Counted from the first letter of the stretch, positions 138-53,481 are shown. The stretch is DNA of 64,000 nucleotides from a virus (IMGVR_UViG_3300047202_000060), one strand, 5' to 3'. Notes: generated by a model from the letters alone, not told the origin. Numbers and translations are program-made.

Positions 138-473
138 ATGTCCTCAGAAAAACAAAAACTCTGGAAGAAAAAAGACTTTCAAGAATACAAAGAAGAATAT
201 AGAAATTACATGAAGAGATATATTCGAGAGTTAAAACATTGGGCTGTCGATAAACTTGGACGAAAATGCTCTGAATGTGGTTTGGTGTCAGAATTTGACT
301 GTGTTTATGATTTCCACCATTTAGAAGAGAATAATAGTTGGAGTAAAGGATTTCAGCGTTCCGCTTCGAATTTGCGGGTCAAAGAACTCTTAAAATGGAA
401 AAAGGCAGACAGTATTCCAGAGGACGTAAAACTTCTTTGTGCTAACTGCCATAGAATTAAACACTCTGATTAA
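138..473 (+). CDS. HNH endonuclease, free-standing, one of only two sizeable plus-strand genes
   Basis: HNH signature DFHHL..N..CANCHRIKH; GGTG 6 nt before ATG; TTATATA box about 33 nt upstream. Confidence 0.6.
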   Translation: MSSEKQKLWKKKDFQEYKEEYRNYMKRYIRELKHWAVDKLGRKCSECGLVSEFDCVYDFHHLEENNSWSKGFQRSASNLRVKELLKWKKADSIPEDVKLLCANCHRIKHSD

Positions 474-487
474 TTAGTCCAGCGCGC

Positions 488-522
488 TATATAAGGGTTT
501 GCCTAGAACGAACGTCCTCAGT
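488..522 (-). promoter_or_regulatory. class I conserved inter-operon element (TATA-like box plus conserved arm), degenerate copy
   Basis: ctatataagggtttgcctagaacgaacgtcctcag; matches consensus cgtccTTATAAAcgtttgcctagaacaccCATGCTCA. Confidence 0.35.
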
Positions 523-538
523 TAATCAACTGATTAAA
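523..538. repeat. 16-bp palindrome TTAATCAACTGATTAA
   Basis: perfect inverted repeat TTAATCA/TGATTAA with 2-nt spacer; one of 17 copies. Confidence 0.6.
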
Positions 539-586
539 ATTCCGCTAAAAACGGGGGTCGCGCCACAACTTTACTGTTCGGAAAAC

Positions 587-823
587 TTAAGTGAAATCTA
601 CTTTAACTTTGTTCGGGTTCCAGAAGGGACAAATACAACCACAAAAGAATAAACGCCCCCCGTTTCCTTTAATTGGGTTCACTATGTCAGATATATGCCC
701 TATGCCTTTAAGATGTTCTGGGTCATCTAGGTTAGGAGATGACTTTGGTTCTGTGCATTTAAAGTGTAACTTTCCAATGTTCTGTCTGTTGCCACAGTTG
801 AAACAACCTTTCTCTTGCGTCAT
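587..823 (-). CDS. small Cys-rich protein with KVKVDFT junction tail
   Basis: ends in junction cassette; CxxC pairs; antisense ORF 591..827 judged spurious. Confidence 0.45.
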   Translation of the reverse strand: MTQEKGCFNCGNRQNIGKLHFKCTEPKSSPNLDDPEHLKGIGHISDIVNPIKGNGGRLFFCGCICPFWNPNKVKVDFT

Positions 824-1281
824 GTGAAGAGCACCTTTTCCTTCCTATTTAAATGTCGTTCTGTCCATTCGTCACATTCACGGTCTATTTGCCGAACGTA
901 GAATATTTCTCCCTTCTCTTTCCAATTCAAGTGAATTTCACCTTTTCTTTTGCGTTAGGGAATCTCTGAGCCTTACAGTCATTATGAAGTCCGTTCGGTA
1001 TGTGAAGAGAAATTAAGCAAAGTTTTCGTGTTCCTATGTCGAAGCTGTGAGGACATTCAGCTTTATCAATACAGCTAGGCAATTTTTGAACTTGTGCTTT
1101 CGTGATTATTGTTATGCTTTCAACCCCTCTCTAAATTGTCCGTGTGCGAACGGTTGACCGTGATGCTCTAGGTTAGGCAGACTTGAATAAACACGCCTAA
1201 GTTTGCGGACGTTCAACGGCAAACCCCCGTAACTTTCCGCTTTGCGAGTTTACGCCGAACCTGTGAGAGTTTTCGCATCTT

Positions 1282-1297
1282 TTAATCATCTGATTAA
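1282..1297. repeat. 16-bp palindrome TTAATCATCTGATTAA
   Basis: inverted repeat copy. Confidence 0.55.
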
Positions 1298-1310
1298 TTG
1301 ATACGTCCCC

Positions 1311-1347
1311 GTCCCTTATAAATCTTTGCCACGAAAGACCGTTCTCG
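1311..1347 (-). promoter_or_regulatory. class I element copy overlapping 3' end of ORF 1316..1564
   Basis: gtcccttataaatctttgccacgaaagaccgttctcg; encodes the C-terminal VFRGKDL-stop of that ORF. Confidence 0.35.
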
Positions 1348-1564
1348 AAATACCGTTTTGTATCGTACAACTCACAAGTTTAAGCCCATATTCAGCTTCT
1401 AATTGCCTAGCCCTCTTCATTACGCCGTCCTTATAGGTTTTCACGCCTAGAATGAGCAGACAGTCTTTCATCCATCCCTCATAAACTATTAAGTTTTCCC
1501 CCTCGATTTTAGTCCCGAATCCTATACGCTCAAGTTTGCGCGCCAGCTTTGCCAAATCCGTCAT
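1316..1564 (-). CDS. hypothetical protein
   Basis: 82-aa ORF, start overlaps stop of upstream gene (ATGA). Confidence 0.5.
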   Translation of the reverse strand: MTDLAKLARKLERIGFGTKIEGENLIVYEGWMKDCLLILGVKTYKDGVMKRARQLEAEYGLKLVSCTIQNGISRTVFRGKDL

Positions 1565-2867: not shown

Positions 2868-3356
2868 TCATAGGTTTTCGATTAATTCTTTTGCTTTCTC
2901 TTTGTCTTTCATTCGTGCAAAAAAGTGAATTGTTCTATGGCATTTCCAGCAAAGAGGAACGAAATCCTTTATATGTTTGAAGGTGTAATATGGGTGTTCA
3001 ACGTGTGGTTTGCCGTGTATTTCGTGATATTCAATAGTGTGGGTTCTTCCAAATAAATTGCCCTCTTCGTTACACAAAACGCAAGTTTTTCCCAAAATTT
3101 CTACAACCATAATTCGATATTTTTCCCTTCTACCTTTGAGATATTGAAGGTTTGCTTTTCGGTATTCTGGGTTATTTGCCATTTTTTCAAGTCGGGTTTG
3201 AGTCAATTTCTTATAACGGTCTTTGTGTTTTTGGTAATAGTCTTTTCGGTAGTCTAACATTCTTTGTTTATTCTTTTGGTAATAGTCTGCCGAATATTTC
3301 CTCATATATTTGGGGTCTTTGCGTATTCCTGTTTTCGTCATTTTGATGAACCTCAT
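2868..3356 (-). CDS. HNH endonuclease family A with YYQKHK basic repeats
   Basis: VLCNEEG...YHEIHGKPH...DFVPLCWKCHRTIH; repeat N-terminus RKDYYQKHKDRYKK. Confidence 0.65.
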   Translation of the reverse strand: MRFIKMTKTGIRKDPKYMRKYSADYYQKNKQRMLDYRKDYYQKHKDRYKKLTQTRLEKMANNPEYRKANLQYLKGRREKYRIMVVEILGKTCVLCNEEGNLFGRTHTIEYHEIHGKPHVEHPYYTFKHIKDFVPLCWKCHRTIHFFARMKDKEKAKELIENL

Positions 3357-4119: not shown

Positions 4120-4152
4120 CTTATAAAGTTTTCCTAAGAAACTCTATGCTCA
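4120..4152 (-). promoter_or_regulatory. class I element copy overlapping 3' end of HNH gene
   Basis: cttataaagttttcctaagaaactctatgctca; encodes NEHRVS-stop of HNH 4134..4814. Confidence 0.4.
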
Positions 4153-4814
4153 TTTAGTTCATTAATCATTTGATTAACTAATTTGAATATTTCTTCCTTC
4201 TTCTTATTGCCCAAGTTCAAAAGATAATGAGTAACATTATGACATCTACAGCATAGAGGTATAAAATCTTCTAAATGCCTCATAATGTAAGCGTAAGTGT
4301 AAGTATGAAGTTTTCCATGAATCTCATGGTAATGAATTATTCTTTTTGAATTACCACAAATCGAACAAATTTTTCCCAATTTTATTTGAACAATATTTTT
4401 CTGTTCTGAATGGTGTTCTCTTTGATATTTTTCTATTCTTTCTTTGTTTTTTCGATTATATTCTTTCTCGTATTCTTTATGTTCCAGATGCCACATTCTA
4501 CTTCTTTCCTTAGCCTTTTCTCTATGTACTTCTCGATATTGTTTAGCCCATTTATTTATTTGGTTTTTGTGTTGTTCATAATATTCTTTTTTTTGTTGTT
4601 TTACTTCTGGGAGTTGTCGGCGTTCTTTCTCACGGTTAAGAATTTTCTCACGATTTTTCTCATAATATCCTTTGCTTCTATTTCTTTCTTGTTCCAGATG
4701 TTCAAGACGATATTGTTTGGCGTATTCTTTATGTTGTTCCTTATGGGTTTGATTATATTGTTTACCATATTGTTTCATATATTGTTTTTCTTGCGTTGAA
4801 TCCTTATACGGCAT
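4134..4814 (-). CDS. HNH endonuclease family A with long K/Y/H-rich repeat N-terminus
   Basis: ICSICG...YHEIHGKLH...DFIPLCCRCHNVTH; start moved from 4844 to the Met 34 nt downstream of TTATAAA box at about 4849. Confidence 0.6.
   Translation of the reverse strand: MPYKDSTQEKQYMKQYGKQYNQTHKEQHKEYAKQYRLEHLEQERNRSKGYYEKNREKILNREKERRQLPEVKQQKKEYYEQHKNQINKWAKQYREVHREKAKERSRMWHLEHKEYEKEYNRKNKERIEKYQREHHSEQKNIVQIKLGKICSICGNSKRIIHYHEIHGKLHTYTYAYIMRHLEDFIPLCCRCHNVTHYLLNLGNKKKEEIFKLVNQMINELNEHRVS
4162..4177. repeat. 16-bp palindrome TTAATCATTTGATTAA (inside HNH 3' coding region, encodes NQMIN)
   Basis: inverted repeat copy. Confidence 0.5.
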
Positions 4815-4846
4815 TCGACTCACCACTAATATAGAACAACACACTC

Positions 4847-4870
4847 ACTTATAAACCTTTCGGTTTGGCT
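4847..4870 (-). promoter_or_regulatory. TATA/BRE-like promoter (cacTTATAAAcctttcggtttgg variant)
   Basis: same variant recurs at 11264 and 15588 upstream of HNH-B genes. Confidence 0.4.
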
Positions 4871-4902
4871 TAACAAAAAAAGAGAAAATAACTGTGGTTG
4901 GT

Positions 4903-5061
4903 TTATGGAATTTCAACTAAAGGGGCATAAACACTTTGATTATATGTATATTTTTTGCCACATTTATTGCATTTCCACTCAACCCAAGTAAAGTGCATTT
5001 TCCGTTCTAATTCATTTCCACAGTTTGGGCATTGCTTATGTTTAATAGCAAAAACTGCCAT
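4903..5061 (-). CDS. small Zn-ribbon protein (52 aa), missed by the 60-aa ORF cutoff
   Basis: MAVFAIKHKQCPNCG...CNKCGKKY; downstream of class I element at 5109. Confidence 0.35.
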   Translation of the reverse strand: MAVFAIKHKQCPNCGNELERKMHFTWVEWKCNKCGKKYTYNQSVYAPLVEIP

Positions 5062-5108
5062 TGGGTTATCCTTCTTGTTTAATTACTATAATTACTATAT
5101 CGCCGACC

Positions 5109-5141
5109 TATATAAAGTTTTGCCCAGAACTACCATGTTCA
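5109..5141 (-). promoter_or_regulatory. class I element copy
   Basis: tatataaagttttgcccagaactaccatgttca, directly after stop of 5143..5436. Confidence 0.4.
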
Positions 5142-5142
5142 T

Positions 5143-5436
5143 TTAATCGGAACCGCAAAGAACACAAGATTTTCCTAGTAACTCGATAACTTTTTGTCTA
5201 AGTTTCAGTCTTGCGTCCTTCCTTCTTTTTACTAATTCTGGGTTCTTCCTTCGCTCTCGTTCTTGTTCTCTTTTGTATTTTTGCATTTTAGGCAAATCTT
5301 TGTAATAAAGTCTATGATGATTTTTGTTTGTTAATTCTTTTCGACATTTTTCAGAACAAACCCTTTGTGTGTTCGATATTTTAGGAAAAATCCTATTACA
5401 TCTCGGACAATAACCATATCCATAATGGTTTCTCAA
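5143..5436 (-). pseudogene. truncated HNH-family paralog: Zn ribbon plus basic repeat retained, nuclease core missing
   Basis: same N-terminal architecture as 31404..31958 and 41223..41687, stops right after LLGKSCVLCGSD where the HNH core would begin. Confidence 0.4.
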
Positions 5437-6701
5437 AGTGGTTCACCACACGGTTTGATATTTTTCTCTCTAAGTTTTTGTTTTTTTTCGGCGATAATTT
5501 TTAGAATCTTATCTTTCTTTTCATTCTTCAATCTATTCTTTAGCGAAGAGAAAACTTTGTGATGAACTTCATAATCCAAATCAAGTTCTTTCAAAGCCTC
5601 AGTTGTTTTTTTGCTCGGATTTAAAAGAATATATTCCTTCATTTTCAAATAAGGGGTTTCACCTTTGCCCCCGATGTCTATTCCTTCCTCTTTAATTATT
5701 TTTTCTAAACCATAATTTTGCATTATGGCATTAAAGAATCTCGGATAATAGTTTTGTAACCATTCAAGATAACCGCTTTGTCTAGCTTGAGGACACGACC
5801 AACAGCCCGTTCGAATCTGATAAAATGTTCCACTATTCAGCTTATAGAATCCCGTTTTTTCACAATTCGTGTTAGCATAAAGTTTGTTATAGTGAAACTT
5901 CATTAACCATTGAAATTTCCAAACATCTTCAATTGTCCAATATGCAATAGGATAAGCACGAAACATTTTATGAGTTTTTGAATAGAAATAACTTCCTCTA
6001 CTGTAAATGAGAGATGACCTATACATATTTTCTTCGAGTCTTAATCCCAGAATTGCAACGTCATAATGCTTAGTAATTTGTTTCATAGGTTTCTTTTTAA
6101 GCAGATAACAACATTTCAAAGTTGCGGTAGATTTTTCTTTTGAGGCAGACGCACGACTGTAAAGAGGCAAACCATATTTTTGAACTACTGTCCTAAATGA
6201 AATACCCCTCTCAGGTGTCGCTCTGATAATTTTGACCCCTAACTCACTTTCTAATTCTTGAATCCTCTTTCGCGTTTCTGGAAATTCCACTAGAGTATCG
6301 CCCCAGATAACTTGAACCCGTTCGTCTATTATTGCGTCTTTGAAAAGTTGCACACAACATTCGCTGTCTATGCCCCCAGAATAAGCGATATAGATTTTCT
6401 TTCCTTTGTTTTCGTCAAGAATCTTTTGAACAAGAGTTTTAGAAAAACAGTATTTCTCTTCGAATGTAGAAGCAAACAGCTTTTTCCGCGCGTCAATTTT
6501 TTCGTGATATTTTTTATTGCCACAAACACAAGTCTGATAAGAATGTTGACAGTCTTTGCACACGGGGACATCTGAATATTCAAGTCCCTCTCTTTTTAAG
6601 AATCCTCTTCTTTCGGAATTATTCATTTTATGATAATTTGACTGAATCCAAAAATCCTTTTTGCCTTTCCAATTTATCCGTTCGTCTTTCCAGCTAGACA
6701 T
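5433..6701 (-). CDS. PP-loop ATP pyrophosphatase, PAPS-reductase/DndC-like family, with N-terminal Cys cluster
   Basis: SGGIDS PP-loop motif in IAYSGGIDSECCVQ; CKDCQHSYQTCVCG N-terminal; 422 aa. Confidence 0.6.
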   Translation of the reverse strand: MSSWKDERINWKGKKDFWIQSNYHKMNNSERRGFLKREGLEYSDVPVCKDCQHSYQTCVCGNKKYHEKIDARKKLFASTFEEKYCFSKTLVQKILDENKGKKIYIAYSGGIDSECCVQLFKDAIIDERVQVIWGDTLVEFPETRKRIQELESELGVKIIRATPERGISFRTVVQKYGLPLYSRASASKEKSTATLKCCYLLKKKPMKQITKHYDVAILGLRLEENMYRSSLIYSRGSYFYSKTHKMFRAYPIAYWTIEDVWKFQWLMKFHYNKLYANTNCEKTGFYKLNSGTFYQIRTGCWSCPQARQSGYLEWLQNYYPRFFNAIMQNYGLEKIIKEEGIDIGGKGETPYLKMKEYILLNPSKKTTEALKELDLDYEVHHKVFSSLKNRLKNEKKDKILKIIAEKKQKLREKNIKPCGEPL

Positions 6702-7958: not shown

Positions 7959-8393
7959 TTAGATAGTCTTTTGTTTTACAAATTCTTGAATTTCGTTTAA
8001 TTCCATTTTACAAATCTGATGAAGAAAGTGAAAACCTTTATGGCAAATATGGCAGAGAGGAATAAAATCCTCTTTGTGGTTTGCATAATACGATAAGCTA
8101 ATCGGGTGTTTTTTCCAATGAATTTCGTGAAGCATTAACCCCTGTTTCGAATCACATGATAAACACTTATCTGGAAATAATGCTTTTACCTTTTCACGAA
8201 ATAGCTTTTTCCTTTTGGATTCTTTTTCACGATTTTTTGAATAGTATGTTTGGTTTCTAAGTTTTCCAGCTTCGTGATTTTCTACGTAGTTGTTTCTGTG
8301 TCTTGCGTTTATTTTTTCTTTGTTTCGTGCGTGATAATCTCTTTGGGCTTTCCTTTGTTTTTCTTTGTCTTTATATGGCAATTCCATCACCAC
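7959..8393 (-). CDS. HNH endonuclease family A
   Basis: CLSCDS...LHEIHWKKH...DFIPLCHICHKGFH; basic N-terminus. Confidence 0.65.
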   Translation of the reverse strand: MVMELPYKDKEKQRKAQRDYHARNKEKINARHRNNYVENHEAGKLRNQTYYSKNREKESKRKKLFREKVKALFPDKCLSCDSKQGLMLHEIHWKKHPISLSYYANHKEDFIPLCHICHKGFHFLHQICKMELNEIQEFVKQKTI

Positions 8394-10803: not shown

Positions 10804-11235
10804 TCAAAGTAGGGGTATATAACCTAGCCACTCATAAACTTTGTTGTTTATTTCTGTCATACCTTCACCTGTCCAGACATTATGCCATATAGATGTATGA
10901 AGTTCTTCTGGAATGTAGATAACAAAATTCTTATCTATATGATGGGCTTCTAAATCAGCAAACGGTTCGTTTAACGAAATAAAACCTAAACCACGTCTTT
11001 TGTGCTGATGTTTTATCCATATTTCTCTAGTTTGTTCTGGATGATTTTTTATCCAAGTTTTTGCTTGCTTTTTCACTTTCTCTTTATTAAGTTGATAATA
11101 TTTTTTATAACGTTTTTTCGCTTGTTCTTTATGTGTTTGAGCATATTTTACATTTTCAATTTTTTTTCTTAATATTACATCTGGACGTTTGCGATATTCT
11201 TGCATATATTCTTTTCTTTGTTTTTTCGTCCACAT
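10804..11235 (-). CDS. HNH endonuclease family B (HHID..IPxELHxxIWHN type) with basic repeat N-terminus
   Basis: GLGFISLNEPF..EAHHIDKNF..IPEELHTSIWHN..EINNKVYEWLG. Confidence 0.65.
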   Translation of the reverse strand: MWTKKQRKEYMQEYRKRPDVILRKKIENVKYAQTHKEQAKKRYKKYYQLNKEKVKKQAKTWIKNHPEQTREIWIKHQHKRRGLGFISLNEPFADLEAHHIDKNFVIYIPEELHTSIWHNVWTGEGMTEINNKVYEWLGYIPLL

Positions 11236-15008: not shown

Positions 15009-15043
15009 CTTATAAATCTTTAGGTAAAATCACCATGCTCGAT
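15009..15043 (-). promoter_or_regulatory. class I element copy encoding C-terminus of HNH-B gene
   Basis: cttataaatctttaggtaaaatcaccatgctcgat encodes IEHGDFT-stop. Confidence 0.4.
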
Positions 15044-15556
15044 TAACCATTCGAACGCTTTATCGTTTATCTCAGTCATTCTCTGTCCTGTATGAATATT
15101 ATGCCATATTGAACGATGTAATTCTTTAGGAATATAGACAACTAACTCGAAGTCTATATGATGCGCTTCTGAACCGACAAATAAATCATTAAGAGGATTA
15201 AATCCTAAATTTCGTTCTCTCTTTGAGTGTTGCTTTCGCCAATATCCCTTAAATTGCTCTGAGTGTTCAAGACGATATTCTCTCTTATAATTTGGGTGTT
15301 TAATACACCATTTTTTCTTACGTTCTCTCTCATATTCTGGGTGAGTTTGAGAATATTGTTTGTTGTATTCATTTATTTGTTTCTTGCGATTTAATTTGGA
15401 TTTTTTGTTAATTTCTCTTGCACGTTCTGGATTTTCTATTTGCCATCTTATCGCAGTTGCACTTAATTGAGTTTTGTGGACTTGACGATATTGTTTGTCA
15501 TGTTCTTTATTTCGCTTATGCCATTCCATCATATAGTTAGGGTCTTTACGTAGCAT
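15020..15556 (-). CDS. HNH endonuclease family B with basic repeats; start moved from 15574
   Basis: NLGFNPLNDLF..EAHHIDFELVVYIPKELHRSIWHN..AFEWLIEHGDFT; TTATAAA box at about 15590. Confidence 0.6.
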   Translation of the reverse strand: MLRKDPNYMMEWHKRNKEHDKQYRQVHKTQLSATAIRWQIENPERAREINKKSKLNRKKQINEYNKQYSQTHPEYERERKKKWCIKHPNYKREYRLEHSEQFKGYWRKQHSKRERNLGFNPLNDLFVGSEAHHIDFELVVYIPKELHRSIWHNIHTGQRMTEINDKAFEWLIEHGDFT

Positions 15557-15587
15557 TCTATTCACAAATAACAATAATGTGTTTCAG

Positions 15588-24380: not shown

Positions 24381-24605
24381 TCACTTCTTGAACCTCTTTC
24401 GCAAGTAGTTTATCCCTATGACAATCATACCTAGAACAATTAGAATGCCTATGACAATCGCAACCACGTTAGCAACTAATGAGCCTATTAAAACAGCTAG
24501 GAGAAGAGCATCAATTGAGATTTTGCTAGTCATATCCAGAATTACAAATGTGAGTAAAGAGCCGATGAACATGCCAAAGAGTCTATGTTTCAGTTTTGTT
24601 TCCAT
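24381..24605 (-). CDS. small membrane protein (two TM helices)
   Basis: hydrophobic stretches. Confidence 0.45.
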   Translation of the reverse strand: METKLKHRLFGMFIGSLLTFVILDMTSKISIDALLLAVLIGSLVANVVAIVIGILIVLGMIVIGINYLRKRFKK

Positions 24606-25029
24606 TTTTACAACTTCCTATCCACATTGAAAAAGCAATTTTAAATCTCAAAAATCTGTGAAGTGTTTTGTGACATTGATAACACAAAGGAATAAAGTCT
24701 TTTATGTGTTCCAAAATATATCTAGGCGAATTAATGTGGGGGTTCAAAGTTATGTCGTGAAAACATATTCGCTTTGGAGTTTCTCCACAAATAACACATT
24801 TTGTTCCCAGAACCTTTTTTATTTTTGTTCTGAGGTCATCTCTGTGTATTTTTGCGTGTTGACAAATTTGTATCTTGTTGTCTTTGTAATATTTCTGTTT
24901 TTCTTTATGAGTCTGATTTTTATGAGTGTCCCTATATTCTTTCATTTTCTTCAAAATAATGGTTCTGTTTTTGTAATAGGATTTTAGAGTTACAGTATTA
25001 TGTCTTAGTCTTTTCTCTTCTTGATTCAT
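24583..25029 (-). CDS. HNH endonuclease family A
   Basis: VLGTKCVICGE...NSPRYILEHIKDFIPLCYQCHKTLH; basic N-terminus. Confidence 0.6.
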   Translation of the reverse strand: MNQEEKRLRHNTVTLKSYYKNRTIILKKMKEYRDTHKNQTHKEKQKYYKDNKIQICQHAKIHRDDLRTKIKKVLGTKCVICGETPKRICFHDITLNPHINSPRYILEHIKDFIPLCYQCHKTLHRFLRFKIAFSMWIGSCKNGNKTET

Positions 25030-25216: not shown

Positions 25217-25651
25217 TTATAGTTTAATCCCCCTTTTATCTGCCTCAATCCATTCGTGACATTTTTGACATACAGTAACTATTATTAACGGATAATCGTA
25301 GTCTGGGTGATGGTGTTCGAGATTTATGGTTTGTCTGTCATCTTCGGGGCAAAGTTCACATTCCTTTTCTAAAGGAACATTTCTCTTTGCCTTTAATCGT
25401 GCATTCTGTTTAAGATGGTTTCGTTTTGCATAAGCGTTAGCTAATTCCCGAACTTTATATGGGTTTTCTTCTTTCCACTTTGCTCGTCCTTTTCGATAAA
25501 TTTCTGGATTAGCTAATCTATACTGTTTTTCCTCTTCCTTATGCTCGGCGTATCGCTTTTTTCTATATGCTCTTTCCTGTGGTTTATGGGTTAATCTGTA
25601 TAATCTATGTCTTTCTCGTTCTTTTGCCCTAAATTCTTCGTCCGCGTTCAA
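25217..25651 (-). CDS. HNH endonuclease-like (divergent) with basic repeat N-terminus
   Basis: CELCPEDDRQTINLEHHHPDYDYP...VCQKCHEWIE. Confidence 0.5.
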   Translation of the reverse strand: MNADEEFRAKERERHRLYRLTHKPQERAYRKKRYAEHKEEEKQYRLANPEIYRKGRAKWKEENPYKVRELANAYAKRNHLKQNARLKAKRNVPLEKECELCPEDDRQTINLEHHHPDYDYPLIIVTVCQKCHEWIEADKRGIKL

Positions 25652-29115: not shown

Positions 29116-29745
29116 TTATTTGTTACTTATAAACTTTGCCCCAGAACTATCGTGCTCGATTAACCACTCGAACGCTTTATCGTTTATCTCGAACATACCA
29201 CGACCAGACCAGATATTATGACGAATTGAATTATGAAGTTTTTCGGGAATATAGACTACACACTCAAAGTCAATATGGTGTCCGTGGGAACCTTCGAATG
29301 GTTCATTAAGAAAATCGTGCCCTAGACCACGGCGTTTATACTTTTGTTTTCTAGTTTGTTTTCCTCTCCATTCTGGATGGTTTTTACGCCAATTTGTCGT
29401 CCTTTGGTCACACTCTTCTTTATGAGCGTTATAATATTGGGTTTTAGATTTTTTATCATGAAGTTTTAATTCTTCTGGGGTTAATCTTTTTAGTGGATGT
29501 GGACGATAACTCTTTTTATGATTTCTCTTATTAGATTCTCTAACCTTTTCGGGATTATTTTTTCGCCAATTTCTCAGCATAATCCTTTTTTGTTCTGGAT
29601 GATTCCTCTTCCATTTTATACTCCGTTGTTTGCATTCTTCTTTGTGAGTTTCATAATAGTGTTTTGTCCATTGCCTTTTATGTTGTTTTAGTTCTTCTTC
29701 TGTAAAGATTTTTCTAACAAATTGACCTTTAGAATTTCTACCCAT
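29116..29745 (-). CDS. HNH endonuclease family B with basic repeats
   Basis: GLGHDFLNEPF..HGHHIDFECVVYIPEKLHNSIRHN..AFEWLIEHDSSGAKFISNK; C-terminus encoded by class I element. Confidence 0.65.
   Translation of the reverse strand: MGRNSKGQFVRKIFTEEELKQHKRQWTKHYYETHKEECKQRSIKWKRNHPEQKRIMLRNWRKNNPEKVRESNKRNHKKSYRPHPLKRLTPEELKLHDKKSKTQYYNAHKEECDQRTTNWRKNHPEWRGKQTRKQKYKRRGLGHDFLNEPFEGSHGHHIDFECVVYIPEKLHNSIRHNIWSGRGMFEINDKAFEWLIEHDSSGAKFISNK
29126..29158 (-). promoter_or_regulatory. class I element copy inside HNH-B 3' end
   Basis: cttataaactttgccccagaactatcgtgctcg. Confidence 0.4.
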
Positions 29746-30901: not shown

Positions 30902-31435
30902 TTAACTCTTCCTTATATATTTTTGCATCTCTTCTGTTGTTCCCTTTCGAATCTCACCGTTCTTTTCCATTATTGAGTACGCCCAGACATCAAGTTGCAT
31001 TAAATCAACTTTGTTTCCCAAGCACCATTCAAGAGCCGAGAAAACAATTGGTCTTTCCATACTGTCATATTCGTCAGATTCCAAAAGCCAGCGTTTGCCT
31101 TTAGGATATTCATAGGCATACTTCTCATCCCAGATATTGCGAATAACAACTTTCCATCTTTTAGGAAGAGGAATATCTTTCGGCAAGTAAGCAAACTTTG
31201 TTCCTTCCATCCCGATAAACATCGTTCGGTTAATCGGATTCCAATAGCATCGAGTAATATCTCCCTTTCTGTTACGTCCTTCATGAGTATATTTCTCCCA
31301 GAGTCTAGCTTCAAACAAGCGTACCTCAATCACATCTTCTTTTGTCACCGACTTAAAAGCTTTTATTGCATCCTCTTTAGAGAGACTTGAGGGAACGAGA
31401 ACGTTATGAATATTCAGAGTAACCATACTTATCAT
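30902..31435 (-). CDS. hypothetical protein
   Basis: 177 aa; ATG 28 nt downstream of TTTATAA box lying inside upstream HNH ORF; antisense ORF 31000..31329 judged spurious. Confidence 0.5.
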   Translation of the reverse strand: MISMVTLNIHNVLVPSSLSKEDAIKAFKSVTKEDVIEVRLFEARLWEKYTHEGRNRKGDITRCYWNPINRTMFIGMEGTKFAYLPKDIPLPKRWKVVIRNIWDEKYAYEYPKGKRWLLESDEYDSMERPIVFSALEWCLGNKVDLMQLDVWAYSIMEKNGEIRKGTTEEMQKYIRKS

Positions 31436-31958
31436 CTTTGTAAGAAGAATAGTTATCGTCCCTTATAAACGTTGTCCCAGAACCATCGTGTTCGTTTTCT
31501 GGGTGATGAAGTTCTCTATGACATCTGCAACAGAGAAGTTGTATTTTACCATCTAAAACCAATTTAAGAAAAACTTTTGTCATATATAAATTACAATCAT
31601 CATGTTTTTCCTTAGTTTTTGGGTCAAGATGGTGAAATTCGAATACTGCCAAACAACCAATATATCCACATTTTTGACATTTGCCACCGAGTAATTTTAT
31701 CAACTCTTTTTTTCGTTTGTGTTTTCTCCCGATAACATATTCTCTAACCCATTTTTTGTTTCTTTTCTGCCAACATCTTTGTGATTCACGAACTTTCTCC
31801 AAATTGTTTAAACGATATTTTCTTCTATTTTGTGCAACTTTTTCTTTATTATTTTCATTCCACTTCTTTGACCTACAATTTTTAGAACAATATTGTTGTA
31901 TTCTATGATAATATGGATTCTGAATAAATTCTGTGCCACACACTTTACATTTTGGCAT
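31404..31958 (-). CDS. HNH endonuclease family A with N-terminal Zn ribbon and basic repeats
   Basis: MPKCKVCG...CSKNC; LLGGKCQKCGY...FHHLDP...LLCCRCHRELH; NEHDGSGTTFIRDD encoded by class I element. Confidence 0.6.
   Translation of the reverse strand: MPKCKVCGTEFIQNPYYHRIQQYCSKNCRSKKWNENNKEKVAQNRRKYRLNNLEKVRESQRCWQKRNKKWVREYVIGRKHKRKKELIKLLGGKCQKCGYIGCLAVFEFHHLDPKTKEKHDDCNLYMTKVFLKLVLDGKIQLLCCRCHRELHHPENEHDGSGTTFIRDDNYSSYKDDKYGYSEYS
31457..31494 (-). promoter_or_regulatory. class I element copy embedded in-frame in HNH ORF
   Basis: cgtcccttataaacgttgtcccagaaccatcgtgttcg. Confidence 0.4.
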
Positions 31959-32916: not shown

Positions 32917-33240
32917 ATGCTTCGATATTGGATAAATCGTTGGCGAAAAATCGGATTGAAAGTTAGCAAACGATTCGAAGGAAGAACAAAAGAGATGCAA
33001 ATTCTTGGTTCTATTATCGGAAAAAAATGTAAAATATGTGGAAGAATGAAAAATATAAGATACCACGAAATTCATGGAAAAAAACACGAACATTCTACAA
33101 GATATATTCTTAATCACGCTTTAGATTTTGTTCCTTTATGCCAAAGGTGTCATAGTACACTTCATTATGCTAAAAGAGTTGAGAAATTGCCCGAAATTCG
33201 CCGAAAGAGATTAGTTCGATTGCTTTCGATTTTAACTTGA
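32917..33240 (+). CDS. HNH endonuclease family A, plus-strand insertion
   Basis: CKICGRMKNIRYHEIHGKKHEHS..LDFVPLCQRCHSTLH. Confidence 0.6.
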   Translation: MLRYWINRWRKIGLKVSKRFEGRTKEMQILGSIIGKKCKICGRMKNIRYHEIHGKKHEHSTRYILNHALDFVPLCQRCHSTLHYAKRVEKLPEIRRKRLVRLLSILT

Positions 33241-38017: not shown

Positions 38018-38046
38018 TTTACATCTGGGAATACTAAGGCGAACCA

Positions 38047-40865: not shown

Positions 40866-41223
40866 CGCCTAACTCTAGTAAAGCTTTCTTTACAACATCT
40901 ACGAATTCCAAGTTTTGACGCGCTCTAGGACATTTCTCTTGTATCTCATTCCAATAATGGTCCCAGCCGTGTTCCAGACTAAAGAGTATTAATGCCGCGC
41001 AAGCTAAAGTGTTTGAACGAGACATTCCAGCCATACACCTAATAATCACTCTTTCTCCGCACCCCAATAAGTTTGCAATCAGAATAATCTTTCGTTTTAC
41101 AACCTCAATCGTGTTTTCTGCTGAATCATTTAAATCTCTCACATCTACGATAATTGTACCTTCTGGTGTGTAACTTTCGAGCATATTGCAAGTTCCTAGA
41201 TTGTTCCATATCCAATATACCAT
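40837..41223 (-). CDS. dual-specificity (CX5R) protein phosphatase-like
   Basis: P-loop IRCMAGMSRSNT matches HCxxGxxRS signature. Confidence 0.6.
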   Translation of the reverse strand: MVYWIWNNLGTCNMLESYTPEGTIIVDVRDLNDSAENTIEVVKRKIILIANLLGCGERVIIRCMAGMSRSNTLACAALILFSLEHGWDHYWNEIQEKCPRARQNLEFVDVVKKALLELGVDRKRLYYD

Positions 41224-41687
41224 TATTTCTCATTCCTCACTTTAGATTCTCTTAATCTCGTTATATCATTCCAAGAAAGACCCAAAAATCTCATACAAAA
41301 ATGGGTGAAACTATGACAAGACTTGCATAGTGGAGCAAAATCTTCTTGATGGTTTATTATGTATAATCTTGAAGAACTATGAGGATTTCCGTGTATTTCG
41401 TGAGCGTGTATTCTGTAATTATTTGGACTATACCCACAAATCAAGCATTTATTCCCCAAAAGCGAGACAATTTTTTTATTATACTTCTCGTTAGTTCTTC
41501 TTGCATTTATACGATGCCGCTCTAAATAACGAATTCTATGATTGGCATCGTAAGATTCTGTCCTCTTTCTTTTACAATCTTTACAAAGATATTCATAATT
41601 TCGTTTTCTGTATTCTGTCCAGTTTGTTCCTAAGATAAGGGCACACCCACAATCCTTGCATTTGTCTTCACGCCATTTATTTGCCAT
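41223..41687 (-). CDS. HNH endonuclease family A with N-terminal Zn ribbon
   Basis: CKDCGC...CKDCKRK; LLGNKCLICGY..HAHEIHGNPH..DFAPLCKSCHSFTH. Confidence 0.6.
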   Translation of the reverse strand: MANKWREDKCKDCGCALILGTNWTEYRKRNYEYLCKDCKRKRTESYDANHRIRYLERHRINARRTNEKYNKKIVSLLGNKCLICGYSPNNYRIHAHEIHGNPHSSSRLYIINHQEDFAPLCKSCHSFTHFCMRFLGLSWNDITRLRESKVRNEK

Positions 41688-45343: not shown

Positions 45344-45516
45344 AGTAAACTGCACCTTCACTTTAGCATTTTTAGGTCCGAAATAATATTTCTCAAACAT
45401 TATCTTTACACACCTGTCCATCTTCAATCTTTTACCCTCTCCAAATGAATGAATTACAGCTTCGACATATCTCGTATGCCATTTTATCTTTTTCATAAGC
45501 ATAGCAATCGATTCTG

Positions 45517-47978: not shown

Positions 47979-48272
47979 TCATAGAATAAATTCGGTTCGC
48001 TTTGCTCTCTCTTGCTTGTGATATTTTCTATGGCACTTTTTATGAGCCAACACTTTATACTCTGGAACATAAGTAACATGATGAATTTCTACTTTGTCTT
48101 TGCCATGTAAAGGAAAATCTTTGGCTCTAAAAGGTTCCCTACAAAAGTAACAATGAGTACCGTCAACATTAAGCATAAGTTGAATAATTTCTATCATTCG
48201 CTCTTTGAAAAGGAAAGTACGATATGCTTTGTTCAGTCTCTTCTTTCTCGATTTTGTTTTCCTCAACAGCAT
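47979..48272 (-). CDS. HNH endonuclease, short form
   Basis: CYFCREPF...IHHVTYVPEY..HKKCHRKYH. Confidence 0.5.
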   Translation of the reverse strand: MLLRKTKSRKKRLNKAYRTFLFKERMIEIIQLMLNVDGTHCYFCREPFRAKDFPLHGKDKVEIHHVTYVPEYKVLAHKKCHRKYHKQERAKRTEFIL

Positions 48273-50166: not shown

Positions 50167-50186
50167 CTTTATAACCTCTGTAACTA

Positions 50187-51004: not shown

Positions 51005-51274
51005 TCACTTTGTTGCTCTATTAGCGGCTGTTAAAGTACCATGTTGTTTGCCATTCCCGTTTTTGACTGTGCAATAAAGACATTCCTCAATAACAAATAA
51101 CTTCCCGTCAATATGTTGTGTGTACTTCATACGTTTATGCCGTCCACAAGTAAGACATGGTTCTTCTGCATCGACTATAATGATTCGTCCACCCATATCC
51201 CTAATTTTCTGTTTTTCGTTTTCGGTTATGTTTTCAAGAGGAATTCGCATACAACTTCTGATTTGTTTAATCAT
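51005..51274 (-). CDS. Zn-ribbon protein
   Basis: CLTCGRH...CLYCTVKN. Confidence 0.45.
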   Translation of the reverse strand: MIKQIRSCMRIPLENITENEKQKIRDMGGRIIIVDAEEPCLTCGRHKRMKYTQHIDGKLFVIEECLYCTVKNGNGKQHGTLTAANRATK

Positions 51275-51370
51275 TTTTCTTCCTCTTTTCTGAATTTATA
51301 TATTTTATACGCAAGATACGTTGGAAATCCAAGTAACATTCCAAATGTCCAAATTACCATAATTATCATT

Positions 51371-51616
51371 TCAATCACCAAGTCTTAGAAGTTCTTCTTT
51401 TGGTTCCTCAGTTTTTTTCTTTGATTGTGCAACCTTCATTGAAATGAAATAGAGCACTTGTCTTCCAATTTCATGTCTTTCACGTTCAGGCAAATTATCC
51501 CAATCATGAAGAACATCTTTAGGAATCCAAATAGATACAAGAACATTTTCGCTTGGAGTTGGGTCTTCAAGTGGCTTTAAAAGCCCAAATCCAACATATT
51601 CTTTTTCATGTGTCAT
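51371..51616 (-). CDS. hypothetical protein
   Basis: ATG 34 nt downstream of TATATAAA box. Confidence 0.45.
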   Translation of the reverse strand: MTHEKEYVGFGLLKPLEDPTPSENVLVSIWIPKDVLHDWDNLPERERHEIGRQVLYFISMKVAQSKKKTEEPKEELLRLGD

Positions 51617-51646
51617 TTTTTCTACCTTGAATATAACTATTCATTC

Positions 51647-51683
51647 GTCCTATATAAACTTTGTGTAAGAAACTCCATACTCA
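51647..51683 (-). promoter_or_regulatory. class I element, near-consensus
   Basis: cgtcctatataaactttgtgtaagaaactccatactca. Confidence 0.45.
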
Positions 51684-51684
51684 A

Positions 51685-52110
51685 CTACCATCTAGGTTTA
51701 TTTCGCTTTGTTGATGGTTCGAGACAAGTATTATTATTTGCTCCCCACAAGGAAATAAAATGAGTCACGTAAGTTCTCTCATAATCTTTGAAATGCACAT
51801 CTTTAAGCCAATCAATATGCATCCTTCTAAAAACCCGAATAATAGAAACTTCTGTAAATTCATGAACATAAGTTCCCAAATCCTGAGCATGTTGCGGTGA
51901 AATTTCTATTTTTTCAATTGGATAATACACTCCCTCTTCCGATGGATAAACAGGTCTAAAATGTTCATTACATTTATGACTTGAACGACAATGAAGACAT
52001 CTTTCCCATTTATATTCGTGACATTCATGAATACAGGAAAATTGAAATCCCCATATATCATACTTATTTTGTTGGTTATTCAACCAATATTCCCTCGGAC
52101 CGTAATGCAT
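51685..52110 (-). CDS. Cys/His-rich hypothetical protein
   Basis: CIHECHEYKWERCLHC. Confidence 0.45.
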   Translation of the reverse strand: MHYGPREYWLNNQQNKYDIWGFQFSCIHECHEYKWERCLHCRSSHKCNEHFRPVYPSEEGVYYPIEKIEISPQHAQDLGTYVHEFTEVSIIRVFRRMHIDWLKDVHFKDYERTYVTHFISLWGANNNTCLEPSTKRNKPRW

Positions 52111-52174
52111 CTATAACATCTTTTCTACAATATGGAAGAAAAACACGATGATAATAAAACGCCCAATCAAACAT

Positions 52175-52954
52175 TTATGATACCGTCCTCTCTGTTTGTA
52201 AATAAATTAAACTCATTTGAATAGACTCATCTGGAAGTTGTTGGTTGTTTAACCATTCAAATGCTTTGTTATTCATTTTTTTCATACCTCTACCCGTTTT
52301 AAGACAATGATATTGGTTATGTAATTCTTTTGGAATAAAAACAACGTGAGATTTATCAATATGATGCCTTACTGCCCCAATAAATGAAATATTAAGAGGA
52401 ATATAGCCTAATCCACGTCTTCTATGTCTTTCTCTTGCTTGTATTTCCGCAAATCGTTCTGGATTGTTAATTATCCATTCCTTATGTTTCTCTCTTATCT
52501 GAGAACGATGTTTCTTTGCCCATTTACTATTTCTTTTTAAAATCATATTTCTTGATAGAGGATTTTTATGATAACGAGTTTTTTCTCGTTCTCTAAATTG
52601 CGGCATATGTTCCCTATTCCATTTTAACGCCTTCTCAATTTGTTCTTCTCTATGATTGTTATAATATTCTTTACGTTGTTTCTTATGAGTTTGATAATAC
52701 TCTCTTTGCCGTAAGTTTATTTGTTTTCTAATTTCTGGATTTCTTCGGCGTTCTCGATGTGCTTCTACATCTCGTTTTTTATTTTCTGAACGGCTACGAT
52801 ATTCTTTATAATATTGTCTATATTCAGGAGATTTCCGTTTTATTCTAGCAATTTCTTTATCTCGTGCTCTGATTTGTTCAAGATGGGTTTGACGATATTT
52901 TCTACAAGAATCTCGATTATGCTCTTTTCTTTCCTCCTCTGATAAAAACATCAT
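52175..52954 (-). CDS. HNH endonuclease family B with very long basic repeat N-terminus
   Basis: GLGYIPLNISF..RHHIDKSHVVFIPKELHNQYHC..AFEWL; repeats REYYQTHKKQRKEYYNNHREE. Confidence 0.6.
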   Translation of the reverse strand: MMFLSEEERKEHNRDSCRKYRQTHLEQIRARDKEIARIKRKSPEYRQYYKEYRSRSENKKRDVEAHRERRRNPEIRKQINLRQREYYQTHKKQRKEYYNNHREEQIEKALKWNREHMPQFREREKTRYHKNPLSRNMILKRNSKWAKKHRSQIREKHKEWIINNPERFAEIQARERHRRRGLGYIPLNISFIGAVRHHIDKSHVVFIPKELHNQYHCLKTGRGMKKMNNKAFEWLNNQQLPDESIQMSLIYLQTERTVS

Positions 52955-53481
52955 TTTATCTCCTTATGTGGGCAAACGCCATAAAACCCTTTAGCAAGAT
53001 TACAATTATGACACAAAACTTGGTATCCTTCGGGATAACCATTTCGCTTGAGCCAAAGATAAAAATCTGTTCCTTTAACCGTCTGTTTTCTATGCTTATT
53101 TCCACCACCATTAATGTGGTCAATTGACAAGAACTTTATCTCGGTTTCGCCACAGCAGATACACTTAGAAACGCCATTGCTATAATGAGTTAACACTTCT
53201 AATCTAATTTTTTGCCTGTTTTTTTGGCAAGTAATTCTTCGTTGTTCTTTATGAGTTTTAGCCCATTCATTATTTTTTCTGCATATTGCTCCCTTATGTT
53301 TCTGATAATATTCTCTTTTTTTCCTACAATATTCTTCACGGTGTTTTATCCACTTCTCTTTTTGTCGTTCCCTGATTTCTTCCCTATGGTTTTCATAATA
53401 CTCTTTTCCCTTTTGATTATAATACTCTTTATGAGACCGTTGATATTTATGTTGGGCTTGATATTTCTCAGGTTCTTCCAA
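52951..53481 (-). CDS. HNH endonuclease with basic repeat N-terminus, coupled (ATGA) to downstream HNH-B gene
   Basis: CICCGETE..IDHINGGGN..VLCHNCNLAKG; repeats KEYYNQKGKEYYENHREE. Confidence 0.6.
   Translation of the reverse strand: MEEPEKYQAQHKYQRSHKEYYNQKGKEYYENHREEIRERQKEKWIKHREEYCRKKREYYQKHKGAICRKNNEWAKTHKEQRRITCQKNRQKIRLEVLTHYSNGVSKCICCGETEIKFLSIDHINGGGNKHRKQTVKGTDFYLWLKRNGYPEGYQVLCHNCNLAKGFYGVCPHKEIK

What the first reader, a model, noticed from the sequence alone, without database searches (positions are those of the whole stretch)
138..53481. About 18 HNH endonuclease genes in 64 kb, with a shared K/Y/H-rich repeat N-terminal module
Two nuclease-core families are present. Family A has EIHGKxH...DFxPLCxxCH. 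Family B has HHID...IPxELHxxIxHN...EWL. There are also divergent copies. Each is fused to a variable number (1-10) of degenerate repeats of the type KEYYxxHKEE / WxKNHPExxRE. One example is KEYYNQKGKEYYENHREEIRERQKEKWIKHREEYCRKKREYYQKHK. The repeat module is shared across different nuclease cores. That implies an exchangeable, probably nucleic-acid-binding, repeat domain. I do not recognise it as a named domain.
Basis: seen in the sequence. Interest (0 to 1): 0.75.

Follow-up and report, generated by a model that had tools for sequence, protein, structure and literature searches.

The report
Nuclease genes sharing a 15-residue helical repeat
This 64 kb stretch of a probable archaeal virus carries 15 intact small endonuclease genes and one decayed copy; most are fused to an unnamed but very widespread 15-amino-acid helical repeat that looks like a plug-in DNA-targeting arm, though DNA binding has not been shown.

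Summary
The window holds 15 intact nuclease-type genes and one truncated remnant (not about 18), about 12% of the DNA. Family A (6 genes plus the remnant) and five divergent genes are detectable HNH/His-Me nucleases. Family B (4 genes, HHID...IPxELH...H...N, no Cys) could not be linked to HNH by any profile or fold search.

The K/Y/H-rich N-terminal region is a true repeat, not low complexity. The unit is 15 residues (minor form 11): [KR]-x-[YW]-[RY]-x-x-[NH]-[KP]-E-x-[IVL]-[KR]-E-x-x. It scores in 11 of the 16 genes (43 units) and in no other reading frame of the window. AlphaFold2 models each unit as one 14-residue helix broken at the N/H.

A repeat-only profile finds 23,733 protein clusters (2,282 at E<=1e-10). 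The best 149 keep the 15-residue register (922 spacings of 15, 50 of 11). They are fused, on either side, to HNH, endonuclease VII, GIY-YIG or Family-B-like cores. No Pfam, NCBIfam or PDB entry covers the repeat.

Related viruses have different endonucleases, including a LAGLIDADG, or none at matching intergenic sites. This fits free-standing homing endonuclease genes. DNA binding by the repeat is inferred only.

The parts
138..473 (+). Divergent Zn-type HNH gene (FHHL...LLCANCHRIKH). No scoring repeat unit.
   Evidence: HNH PHROGs phrog_2255 at E=7.8e-13 and phrog_3106 at E=4.9e-10. Pfam HNH 17.1 bits, below the cutoff. The orthologue L003:627-1052 is 69% identical and has 31 extra residues, about two units, in the N-terminal repeat region.
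2868..3356 (-). Family A HNH gene. Two repeat units at nt 3201-3290.
   Evidence: BLASTP and phmmer family links. HNH PHROGs 8048 and 144. Units. BRE/TATA-like motif upstream.
4134..4844 (-). Family A HNH gene. Seven scoring units at nt 4422-4763, the longest array in Family A. The true start is probably the ATG at 4814 (MPYKD...).
   Evidence: The TATA-like box lies 4 nt from the GTG start, which argues for the downstream ATG. Homologues P0023 and P0026 start MPYKDP.
5143..5436 (-). Truncated Family A remnant: Zn ribbon, degenerate basic region and the first CxxC, then a stop. No nuclease core follows in any frame.
   Evidence: Three-frame translation of 4840-5450. BLASTP to Family A N-terminal halves. 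Weak NinG hit.
7959..8393 (-). Family A HNH gene between the VWA and AAA genes. Two units at nt 8208-8342.
   Evidence: In relative L003 the matching intergenic slot holds a LAGLIDADG endonuclease.
10804..11235 (-). Family B gene. Three units exactly 15 residues apart at nt 11017-11151.
15020..15574 (-). Family B gene. Seven units at nt 15239-15529, with spacings of 15 and 11. The true start is probably at 15556 (MLRKDP).
   Evidence: P0019 is the same protein called at 178 aa.
24583..25029 (-). Family A HNH gene. One scoring unit at nt 24883-24927, plus degenerate ones.
25217..25651 (-). Divergent HNH-type gene (HHHPDYDYP...VCQKCHEW). Four units at nt 25439-25606.
   Evidence: phrog_2340 'endonuclease' at E=4.7e-11..
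29116..29745 (-). Family B gene, used as the reference. Five units in two blocks at nt 29353-29664.
   Evidence: AF2 mean pLDDT 90, with helices 35-48, 50-63, 65-79, 109-122 and 124-138 broken at the conserved H/N. Homologues P0002-P0022.
31404..31958 (-). Divergent Zn-type HNH gene with an N-terminal Zn ribbon. Three units at nt 31734-31868.
   Evidence: phrog_3106 at E=6.7e-15; that match also covers the repeat region..
32917..33240 (+). Family A HNH gene without repeats, on the opposite strand.
   Evidence: Pfam DUF968 at E=0.0013 and HNH at E=0.3.
41223..41687 (-). Family A HNH gene with an N-terminal Zn ribbon. Only degenerate basic repeats.
   Evidence: phrog_2255 at E=4.6e-6..
47979..48272 (-). 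Small divergent HNH gene (IHHVTY...AHKKCHRKYH). No repeats.
   Evidence: phrog_1271 HNH endonuclease at E=1.8e-5.
52175..52954 (-). Family B gene with the longest repeat region: six scoring units over about 155 residues at nt 52439-52903.
52951..53481 (-). DH-N-N type HNH gene (CCGE...SIDHINGGG...VLCHNCNLAKG). Three units at nt 53227-53451. It overlaps the next gene by 4 nt.
   Evidence: No Pfam or PHROG hit. It matches a profile built from Pfam-positive HNH flanks at E=3.8e-6, against a set of only 15 sequences. Units.

Best explanation
The window is part of a large virus or mobile element with archaeal-type expression signals. It has been colonised by at least five kinds of small, free-standing, homing-type endonuclease genes.

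Most of these genes are two-part proteins. One part is a compact catalytic core: Zn-type HNH variants, or the Cys-less Family B core. The other part is an N-terminal array of 1 to about 10 copies of a 15-residue unit, [KR]-x-[YW]-[RY]-x-x-[NH]-[KP]-E-x-[IVL]-[KR]-E-x-x.

Shown here: each unit is predicted to be one 14-residue helix, with the break at the invariant N/H. The period is rigid, 15 residues or 11, which differ by about one helical turn. The copy number changes between orthologues. The same module is attached to unrelated nuclease folds throughout the sequence databases.

Inferred: on a helical wheel the helix has three faces. One is aromatic/aliphatic (positions 11, 14 and 3). One is basic (positions 8, 12, 1 and 4). 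One is acidic (positions 9, 13 and 5). Net charge is about +2 per unit. I infer that the array is an extended, kinked chain of helices that lies along DNA. It would anchor the otherwise non-specific catalytic core next to a long target site. Array length and the variable positions 4, 11, 14 and 15 would tune what is bound. This is the role NUMOD and helix-turn-helix modules play in other homing endonucleases.

Also inferred: the genes persist by cutting genomes of related viruses that lack them and being copied in during repair.
For: Repeat reality and period. In the top 149 library proteins there are 1,183 units, with spacing of 15 in 922 cases and 11 in 50.

Structure: AF2 mean pLDDT 90, and 96-98 over most of the arrays; each helix break falls at the conserved H/N.

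Charge and conservation: +2.0 net charge per unit. Position 3 is Y/W in 95% of units, position 7 is N/H in 98%, and position 9 is E/D in 90%.

Modularity: the repeat-only profile finds 23,733 clusters at E<=1e-3 and 2,282 at E<=1e-10. The top 149 carry Pfam HNH (38), HNH_5 (36), HNH_4 (12), Endonuclease_7 (11), GIY-YIG (5) and HNH_3 (3). The array lies N-terminal in 107 and C-terminal in 31. Flank clusters give 72 HNH, 9 EndoVII, 12 GIY-YIG and 7 Family-B-like. P0028 is a GIY-YIG with this repeat and a Zn finger.

Copy-number change: a 31-residue indel between 69%-identical orthologues. Units within a protein are 46% identical, against 28% between proteins.

Mobility: relatives L003/L004 have 7 such genes in 16.6 kb at partly different places. 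The VWA-AAA slot holds a Family A HNH here and a LAGLIDADG_1 endonuclease in L003, at 28.3 bits, above the cutoff. L002 has none. There is one decayed copy. Most of the genes have their own BRE/TATA-like element.

Nuclease identity of the non-B cores: HNH PHROG hits and profile hits.

Against: The AF2 alignment had only 24 sequences, pTM was 0.50, and I could not inspect coordinates. How the helices pack is therefore unknown.

Units carry about 2.6 acidic residues each. Periods of 15 and 11 residues are also those of right-handed coiled coils, so an oligomerisation or spacer role is possible.

Five of the 16 genes work without the repeat.

Homing itself is inferred from comparative gene content. 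Gene order differs between the relatives, so the 'same site' argument is approximate.

Family B is not demonstrably a nuclease.
Confidence: 0.6

Rival explanations
1. The repeat array is a protein-protein module, a coiled-coil-like or belt-like oligomerisation or spacer arm. It would dimerise the nuclease so that both strands are cut, or set the distance between an N-terminal Zn ribbon and the catalytic core. It would not itself read DNA.
For: The unit lengths, 15 and 11 residues, are those of pentadecad and hendecad coiled coils (established knowledge), and they are the only common spacings. The conserved positions 3, 4, 7, 11 and 14 fall on one stripe of a notional continuous helix (my calculation). 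Forty-two of the 149 library proteins have an N-terminal Zn ribbon that could be the real DNA reader. Some phage records annotate such proteins as 'coil containing protein'.
Against: Proline occupies position 8 in 30% of units, and in nearly every unit of many arrays. AF2 breaks the helix at every unit. Both points argue against a continuous coiled coil. A net charge of +2 per unit would repel in a homo-oligomer. Array length varies from 1 to 14 units, even between orthologues, which suits a tunable binder better than a fixed oligomer interface.
Confidence: 0.2
2. The endonucleases are not selfish homing genes but domesticated viral tools. They might degrade or nick host or competitor DNA, or act in replication or packaging. 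The repeat would target them to a general DNA feature, such as modified, single-stranded or structured DNA or RNA, not to specific sequences.
For: They are embedded in operon-like gene strings, often overlapping their neighbours by 1-32 nt. Relatives also keep a high density of them. The conserved aromatic and N/H stripe is the kind of surface that stacks on and hydrogen-bonds to exposed bases in single-strand binders (established knowledge of PUF and PPR proteins).
Against: Presence, absence and replacement at matching positions, including replacement by a LAGLIDADG homing endonuclease, together with a decayed copy, form the usual signature of selfish endonuclease genes. Fifteen paralogous tools of five types is more than a conserved function would be expected to need.
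Confidence: 0.15
3. The region is only a compositionally biased, disordered linker with no specific structure or function.
For: It is rich in K, E, R, Y and H. Pfam gives only spurious low-complexity-type hits such as HC2, APOC4 and APC_u15.
Against: Composition-preserving shuffles destroy the signal. The period is exact (922 of about 1,030 spacings are 15 residues). Three positions are 90-98% conserved. There is no DNA-level tandem repeat, so the pattern is kept at the protein level. AF2 pLDDT is 96-98.
Confidence: 0.03

Closest known systems
Free-standing HNH homing endonuclease genes of large phages (for example T4 mob genes, SPO1/SP82 I-HmuI-type enzymes)
   Same: Small nuclease genes sit between conserved genes, with many copies per genome. 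Presence and absence vary among relatives, and there are decayed copies. The catalytic core is fused to a separate targeting region. About 12% of the DNA here is comparable to or denser than T4, which as I recall has about 15 such genes in 169 kb.
   Different: The element has archaeal-type promoters. The targeting region is a 15-residue repeat, not NUMOD, HTH or AP2 modules. One core type, Family B, has no detectable link to HNH. No cleavage or homing data exist.
NUMOD1/3/4 and IENR modules, and the I-TevI / I-HmuI DNA-binding domains
   Same: They are short modular units, often in tandem, shared between HNH and GIY-YIG homing endonucleases. They give an extended DNA contact next to a non-specific catalytic domain. 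This is the role proposed here.
   Different: There is no sequence match to any NUMOD model. Unit length and motif differ. The NUMOD role in DNA binding is supported by solved endonuclease-DNA structures, as I recall them; this repeat has none.
STPR domain of Bombyx FMBP-1 (PDB 5d23), tandem 23-residue one-helix repeats bound to DNA
Same-repeat proteins in isolated viruses, annotated only as HNH endonuclease, endonuclease VII or hypothetical: Streptomyces phages Samisti12 and EGole, Pseudomonas phage JBD44, Rhizobium phage 16-3 p100, Methanosarcina virus MetMV
   Same: tblastn matches to the repeat-plus-HNH protein P0045 in 121 phage records. In 8 of them the match covers at least 80% of the query, and so the repeat region too. 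This shows the module exists in cultured phages and in one archaeal virus.
   Different: None of the records names or discusses the repeat. Family B is absent from that collection.
Pro-punctuated amphipathic 11/22-residue helical repeats of apolipoproteins, and pentadecad/hendecad coiled coils
   Different: The sequence motif and the partners (nucleases) differ, and the net charge is strongly positive. No homology is implied.

Membership tests
HNH / His-Me finger nucleases (Family A and the five divergent genes) | Significant match to curated HNH profiles | tested here: met
   HNH-annotated PHROGs hit 138-473, 2868-3356, 31404-31958, 41223-41687 and 47979-48272. 25217-25651 hits phrog_2340, annotated 'endonuclease' (E from 6.7e-15 to 3.4e-5). 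52951-53481 hits a profile built from Pfam-positive HNH flanks at E=3.8e-6, against a 15-sequence set. Pfam HNH itself stays below its gathering score.
HNH / His-Me finger nucleases (Family A and the five divergent genes) | Catalytic His at the end of strand 1, a downstream N/H on the helix, and often paired CxxC Zn ligands | tested here: met
   Read directly from the sequences. In Family A the invariant columns are C92, C95, H111, H118, C136, C139, H140 and H144. 52951-53481 has CCGE...DHING...CHNCN.
HNH / His-Me finger nucleases (Family B: 10804, 15020, 29116, 52175) | Profile or fold similarity to a known His-Me finger | tested here: inconclusive
Free-standing homing endonuclease genes | Presence, absence or replacement at matching positions among related genomes | tested here: met
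   Window order: VWA - FamA HNH - AAA - ... - HNH remnant - FamA HNH - 230-aa gene - FamA HNH. L003 order: VWA (with an intein-like insert) - LAGLIDADG - AAA - DH-N-N HNH - ... - DH-N-N HNH - 230-aa gene. L002 has the same three marker genes and no endonuclease. Caveat: gene order is not identical.
Free-standing homing endonuclease genes | Site-specific cleavage of the allele that lacks the gene, followed by gene conversion | not testable with these tools
   Needs enzyme assays or co-infection experiments.
NUMOD / IENR / HNH_repeat accessory modules | Match to Pfam NUMOD1, NUMOD3, NUMOD4 or HNH_repeat models | tested here: not met
   None of these families appears for the 16 window proteins at E<=1, or for the 149 best repeat proteins at E<=1e-3.
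Pentadecad / hendecad coiled coil | 15- or 11-residue period with a continuous, uninterrupted helix | tested here: not met
   The period criterion is met. However, proline occupies position 8 in 30% of units, and AF2 breaks the helix at every unit. Oligomeric state was not testable.
TALE / PUF / PPR-type code repeats | Repeats of about 33-36 residues with two or three helices, plus one or two hypervariable specificity positions | tested here: not met
   The unit here is 15 residues and one helix. Among near-identical unit pairs, differences concentrate at positions 15, 14, 4 and 11 (0.44-0.68 per pair), against 0.03-0.2 at most of the other positions. This is suggestive but is not a demonstrated code.

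The most novel reading that the evidence does not exclude
The 15-residue unit could be a previously undescribed class of one-helix modular DNA-recognition repeat. It would be used by HNH, endonuclease VII, GIY-YIG and Family-B endonucleases in bacteria, archaea, their viruses and some eukaryotic elements. Each unit would contact a fixed number of base pairs, with the variable positions 4, 11, 14 and 15 setting sequence preference, so that target sites could be read from, or engineered through, the array. Separately, Family B could be a new nuclease fold or a very divergent His-Me finger.
Probability: 0.25. Interest if true: 0.85.

Novelty: new variant of a known kind. Interest (0 to 1): 0.58.

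Why it matters
Homing endonucleases are built from a blunt catalytic core and a separate DNA-targeting part. The known targeting parts (LAGLIDADG saddles, NUMOD, HTH, Zn fingers) have been mined for genome engineering.

Here a very common accessory repeat, found in more than 23,000 protein clusters, has no entry in Pfam, NCBIfam or the PDB. It is shared by at least three unrelated nuclease superfamilies.

If it binds DNA in a unit-by-unit manner, it would be a new and very compact recognition scaffold. It would also allow target-site prediction for thousands of unannotated mobile nucleases. If it only binds the DNA backbone or acts as a spacer, naming it would still improve the annotation of phage, archaeal-virus and giant-virus genomes, where these proteins are now called 'hypothetical' or simply 'HNH endonuclease'.

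The window also documents an unusually dense endonuclease load, about 12% of the DNA, in a probable archaeal virus lineage from peat.

Tried and rejected
- Pfam, NCBIfam, PHROGs and PADLOC on the window proteins and on the 149 best library hits: no model for the repeat.
- PDB sequence searches with the full Family B profile, the core-only profile and the repeat-only profile: only chance hits.
- hhalign and hmmsearch of Family B against Family A, HNH and EndoVII profiles: negative.
- The word-indexed search with the 45-residue repeat profile found only 2 proteins because the query is too short. The exhaustive search was needed.
- megablast of 20 kb of the window, and tblastn of the Family B protein, against isolated phages: no match.
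- The KaiC-like neighbour gene in viral contigs, and the Family B core in species-representative genomes: no relatives found. The host remains unidentified.
- Literature searches by keyword and by peptide strings: no description of the repeat.
- DNA-level tandem repeats as the origin of the protein repeat: rejected. TRF finds none with the 45-nt period.
- Low-complexity linker: rejected.

Full report
**Setting**

The window has about 36% G+C, and almost all of its genes are on the minus strand. It matches a 140,745-bp JGI metagenome contig. Many genes, including most of the nuclease genes, are preceded at about 15-40 nt by a BRE/TATA-like element (AAnnTTTAWAWR). Internal genes of gene strings use a GGTG Shine-Dalgarno sequence that overlaps the previous stop codon. 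Together these features suggest an archaeal virus or other archaeal mobile element. Context genes include a PAPS-reductase-like protein, an AAA_5 ATPase, a VWA protein, an SPFH protein, a KaiC-like ATPase, an RNA ligase and glycosyltransferases. No tRNA gene was found. There is no nucleotide match to isolated phages.

**Checking the observation: the genes**

Motif scans, all-against-all BLASTP and phmmer of the nuclease cores against every six-frame segment give 15 intact genes and one truncated remnant.

- Family A has six intact members. Its invariant residues are CxxC ... H ... H ... D-F-x-P-L-C-x-x-C-H ... H.
- Family B has four members. Its invariant residues are R, L, N, F, HH, P, L, H, H and N, with no cysteine ligands.
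- Five genes are divergent: 138-473 and 31404-31958, which are related to each other, 25217-25651, 47979-48272 and 52951-53481.
- The ORF 5143-5436 ends just after the first CxxC, and no core follows in any frame.

These genes occupy 12% of the window.

**Are the cores HNH nucleases?**

Pfam HNH does not reach its threshold for any of them. HNH-annotated PHROG profiles do hit the Family A members tested and three of the divergent genes. A fourth, 25217-25651, hits a PHROG annotated simply 'endonuclease'. The gene 52951-53481 matches a profile built from Pfam-positive HNH domains.

Family B matched nothing in any test:
- Pfam, even at E<=10
- PHROGs
- hhalign
- hmmsearch
- PDB sequences

The predicted strand-strand-helix topology and the invariant His/His/His/His/Asn pattern fit a His-Me finger. 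Family-B-like cores also occupy the nuclease slot in other repeat proteins. Membership is still unproven. I put it at about 0.6.

**Checking the observation: the repeat**

I started from five obvious units in the 29116-29745 product and let a 15-column matrix converge on the 16 window proteins.

- With leave-one-protein-out matrices, 9 proteins score 2-5 units (one protein scores a single unit), with summed scores of 8-86. Their shuffles average 0.02-0.2 units.
- A six-frame scan of all 64 kb finds strong units only in these genes.
- Adding the metagenomic homologues gives 136 units. Spacings are exactly 15 residues in 69 cases and exactly 11 in 15.
- The final tally in the window is 43 units in 11 genes. 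Five genes have none or only degenerate traces.
- No 45-nt DNA tandem repeat exists, so the pattern is maintained at the protein level.

**Anatomy of the unit**

In 1,183 units from the wider set, the conserved positions are as follows:

| Position | Residues | Frequency |
|---|---|---|
| 1 | K/R | 81% |
| 3 | Y/W | 95% |
| 7 | N/H | 98% |
| 8 | K, P or R | 42%, 30%, 18% |
| 9 | E/D | 90% |
| 11 | hydrophobic, mostly I/V/L | 78% |

Net charge is +2.0 per unit, from 4.6 basic and 2.6 acidic residues.

AlphaFold2 on the 29116-29745 product with 24 sequences gives mean pLDDT 90, and 96-98 over most of the arrays. It predicts one 14-residue helix per unit, and every break falls exactly at the conserved H/N. 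The N/H-[P/K]-E motif would then act as a helix N-cap (inference).

Placing the consensus on a helical wheel (my calculation) gives three faces:
- an aromatic/aliphatic stripe at positions 11, 14 and 3
- an adjoining basic stripe at positions 8, 12, 1 and 4
- an acidic stripe on the remaining face at positions 9, 13 and 5

**Distribution**

A word-indexed search with the repeat profile failed because the query is too short. The exhaustive HMMER search of 1.84 billion cluster representatives found 23,733 proteins at E<=1e-3, 2,282 at E<=1e-10 and 10 at E<=1e-30.

In the best 149:
- The median is 8 units per protein, with a range of 3-14. Spacing is 15 residues in 922 cases, 11 in 50 and 30 in 36.
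- Pfam finds HNH (38), HNH_5 (36), HNH_4 (12), Endonuclease_7 (11), GIY-YIG (5), HNH_3 (3) and Helitron_like_N (1). Nothing covers the repeat itself.
- NCBIfam likewise hits only the nuclease parts.
- Clustering the non-repeat flanks gives 72 C-terminal HNH domains, 17 N-terminal Zn ribbons, 9 endonuclease VII, 12 GIY-YIG (10 N-terminal, 2 C-terminal) and 7 Family-B-like cores.
- The array is N-terminal of the other domain in 107 proteins and C-terminal in 31.

Repeat-only proteins also exist, such as P0029 (68 aa) and P0066. Cultured phages and Methanosarcina virus MetMV encode such proteins, annotated only as HNH endonuclease, endonuclease VII or hypothetical. The source names returned for cluster members were all 'hypothetical' or 'uncharacterized' protein. 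No PDB chain contains the repeat, and I found no paper describing it.

**Evolutionary behaviour**

The orthologue of 138-473 in L003 is 69% identical. It has 31 extra residues, about two units, in the repeat region. Units within a protein are more alike (46%) than units from different proteins (28%). In near-identical unit pairs the differences concentrate at positions 15, 14, 4 and 11. Arrays therefore grow and shrink by whole units, and one surface diversifies.

**Mobility**

Two peat-metagenome contigs, L003 and L004, share marker genes at 63-81% identity and carry seven repeat-nuclease genes in 16.6 kb.

- Between the VWA and AAA genes, the window has a Family A HNH. L003 has a free-standing LAGLIDADG_1 endonuclease there, scoring above Pfam's cutoff.
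- Upstream of the 230-aa gene, the window has a Family A gene plus a remnant. L003 has DH-N-N type genes there.
- The IMG/VR relative L002 has the three marker genes and no endonuclease.
- In another relative, a Family B gene sits directly upstream of the VWA gene.

Taken with the decayed copy, this is the usual signature of free-standing homing endonuclease genes. Gene order differs among these genomes, however, and no cleavage data exist.

**Most likely mechanism**

The genes are selfish, homing-type endonucleases. Each has a small catalytic core that is positioned by a modular array of basic one-helix units lying along DNA. Array length and the variable face would set the target.

- Shown: the repeat is real, its period and predicted secondary structure, its modular distribution, its changes in copy number, and the polymorphism of gene content.
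- Inferred: DNA binding, target specificity, homing, and nuclease activity of Family B.

Rivals:
- An oligomerisation or spacer arm. The 15- and 11-residue periods suit right-handed coiled coils, but proline in 30% of units, the predicted breaks and the positive charge argue against it.
- Domesticated nucleases that target a general DNA or RNA feature.
- A disordered linker, which is rejected.

**Comparison with known systems and novelty**

The whole works like the phage free-standing HNH, GIY-YIG and endonuclease VII genes with accessory DNA-binding modules. The module is not NUMOD, IENR or HNH_repeat (tested, not met). It is not a TALE/PUF-type repeat. It resembles STPR only by analogy. I rate it a new variant of a known kind: a widespread accessory repeat that is, as far as these libraries show, unnamed, plus an uncharacterised core (Family B), in an unusually endonuclease-rich probable archaeal virus.

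Noticed in passing
window, 35 minus-strand ORF ends, e.g. 587-823, 1561-2475, 11299-14374, 16650-17668, 19999-20897, 34136-38047, 45341-45520: Thirty-five small ORFs end with the peptide (E)KVxFT. At DNA level this is a conserved junction, GAGAAGGTGnnnTTYACWTGA. It combines a GGTG Shine-Dalgarno sequence, an unusually conserved TTYAC spacer and an ATG or TTG start that overlaps the TGA stop. It is probably a translational-coupling or re-initiation signal read through as protein. Relatives L002 and L003 use it too (EKIKFT, EKVLFT, EVIEFT).
   Followed up: partly
window, upstream of many genes, e.g. 4848-4863, 8418-8429, 11265-11280, 15589-15604, 29777-29788, 32871-32882: Archaeal BRE/TATA-like elements ((C)CGAAA/AACC + TTTAWAWR) lie about 15-40 nt upstream of start codons, implying short or absent leaders. 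With near-total single-strand gene orientation, this points to an archaeal virus or mobile element. The host was not identified.
   Followed up: partly
L003:1237-4005 and L003:3993-4589: In the related peat contig the VWA protein is 922 aa, against 588 aa here. The difference is an intein-like insert (C...GSN|C) containing a LAGLIDADG_3-like segment at 21.6 bits, just under the Pfam cutoff. A free-standing LAGLIDADG_1 gene follows it. The window's VWA gene (8439-10205) lacks the insert, at ...HEV|CNLVEDK.
   Followed up: partly
window 55241-56410, 58765-59523, 59532-60587 (and 62235-63575): Three ORFs in and next to the glycosyltransferase gene cluster end with the same tail, [NK]PDxxQxxPHP*. 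A fourth has AFPHPPISL*. Each is followed by TAGGTGAT and the next start codon. The meaning of the shared C-terminal motif is unknown.
   Followed up: no
window 12195-12566 and 13462-13818; many CxxC...CxxC ORFs at 11487-14374, 17195-18065, 20673-21145, 35056-37629: There are runs of small paralogous ORFs. Two of them are acidic proteins sharing a near-identical N-terminal peptide (EFEAELEDIFE / EFEAELSDIFE). Many others are 50-100 aa zinc-ribbon proteins.
   Followed up: partly
P0064 (1204 aa), P0049 (532 aa): The same 15-residue repeat occurs in a protein with Helitron_like_N and DUF6570 domains, and in another long protein with near-identical KRYAAKHPEVxRAAA units. The module therefore also travels with Helitron-type elements. 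The source organisms are not known.
   Followed up: no
window 4785-4814 and 8355-8384; P0006, P0010, P0012, P0015, P0018, P0020, P0023, P0026, P0057: Many repeat-nuclease proteins of different core types begin with the same cap, MPYKDP(E/N)K. It looks like a truncated first unit with Asp as the helix cap.
   Followed up: no
L006:6001-9377: In a further relative (ENA ERZ27250039, 29 kb contig) a Family B gene overlaps the start of a 919-aa VWA gene. The VWA neighbourhood therefore seems to be a recurrent landing place for endonuclease genes.
   Followed up: no
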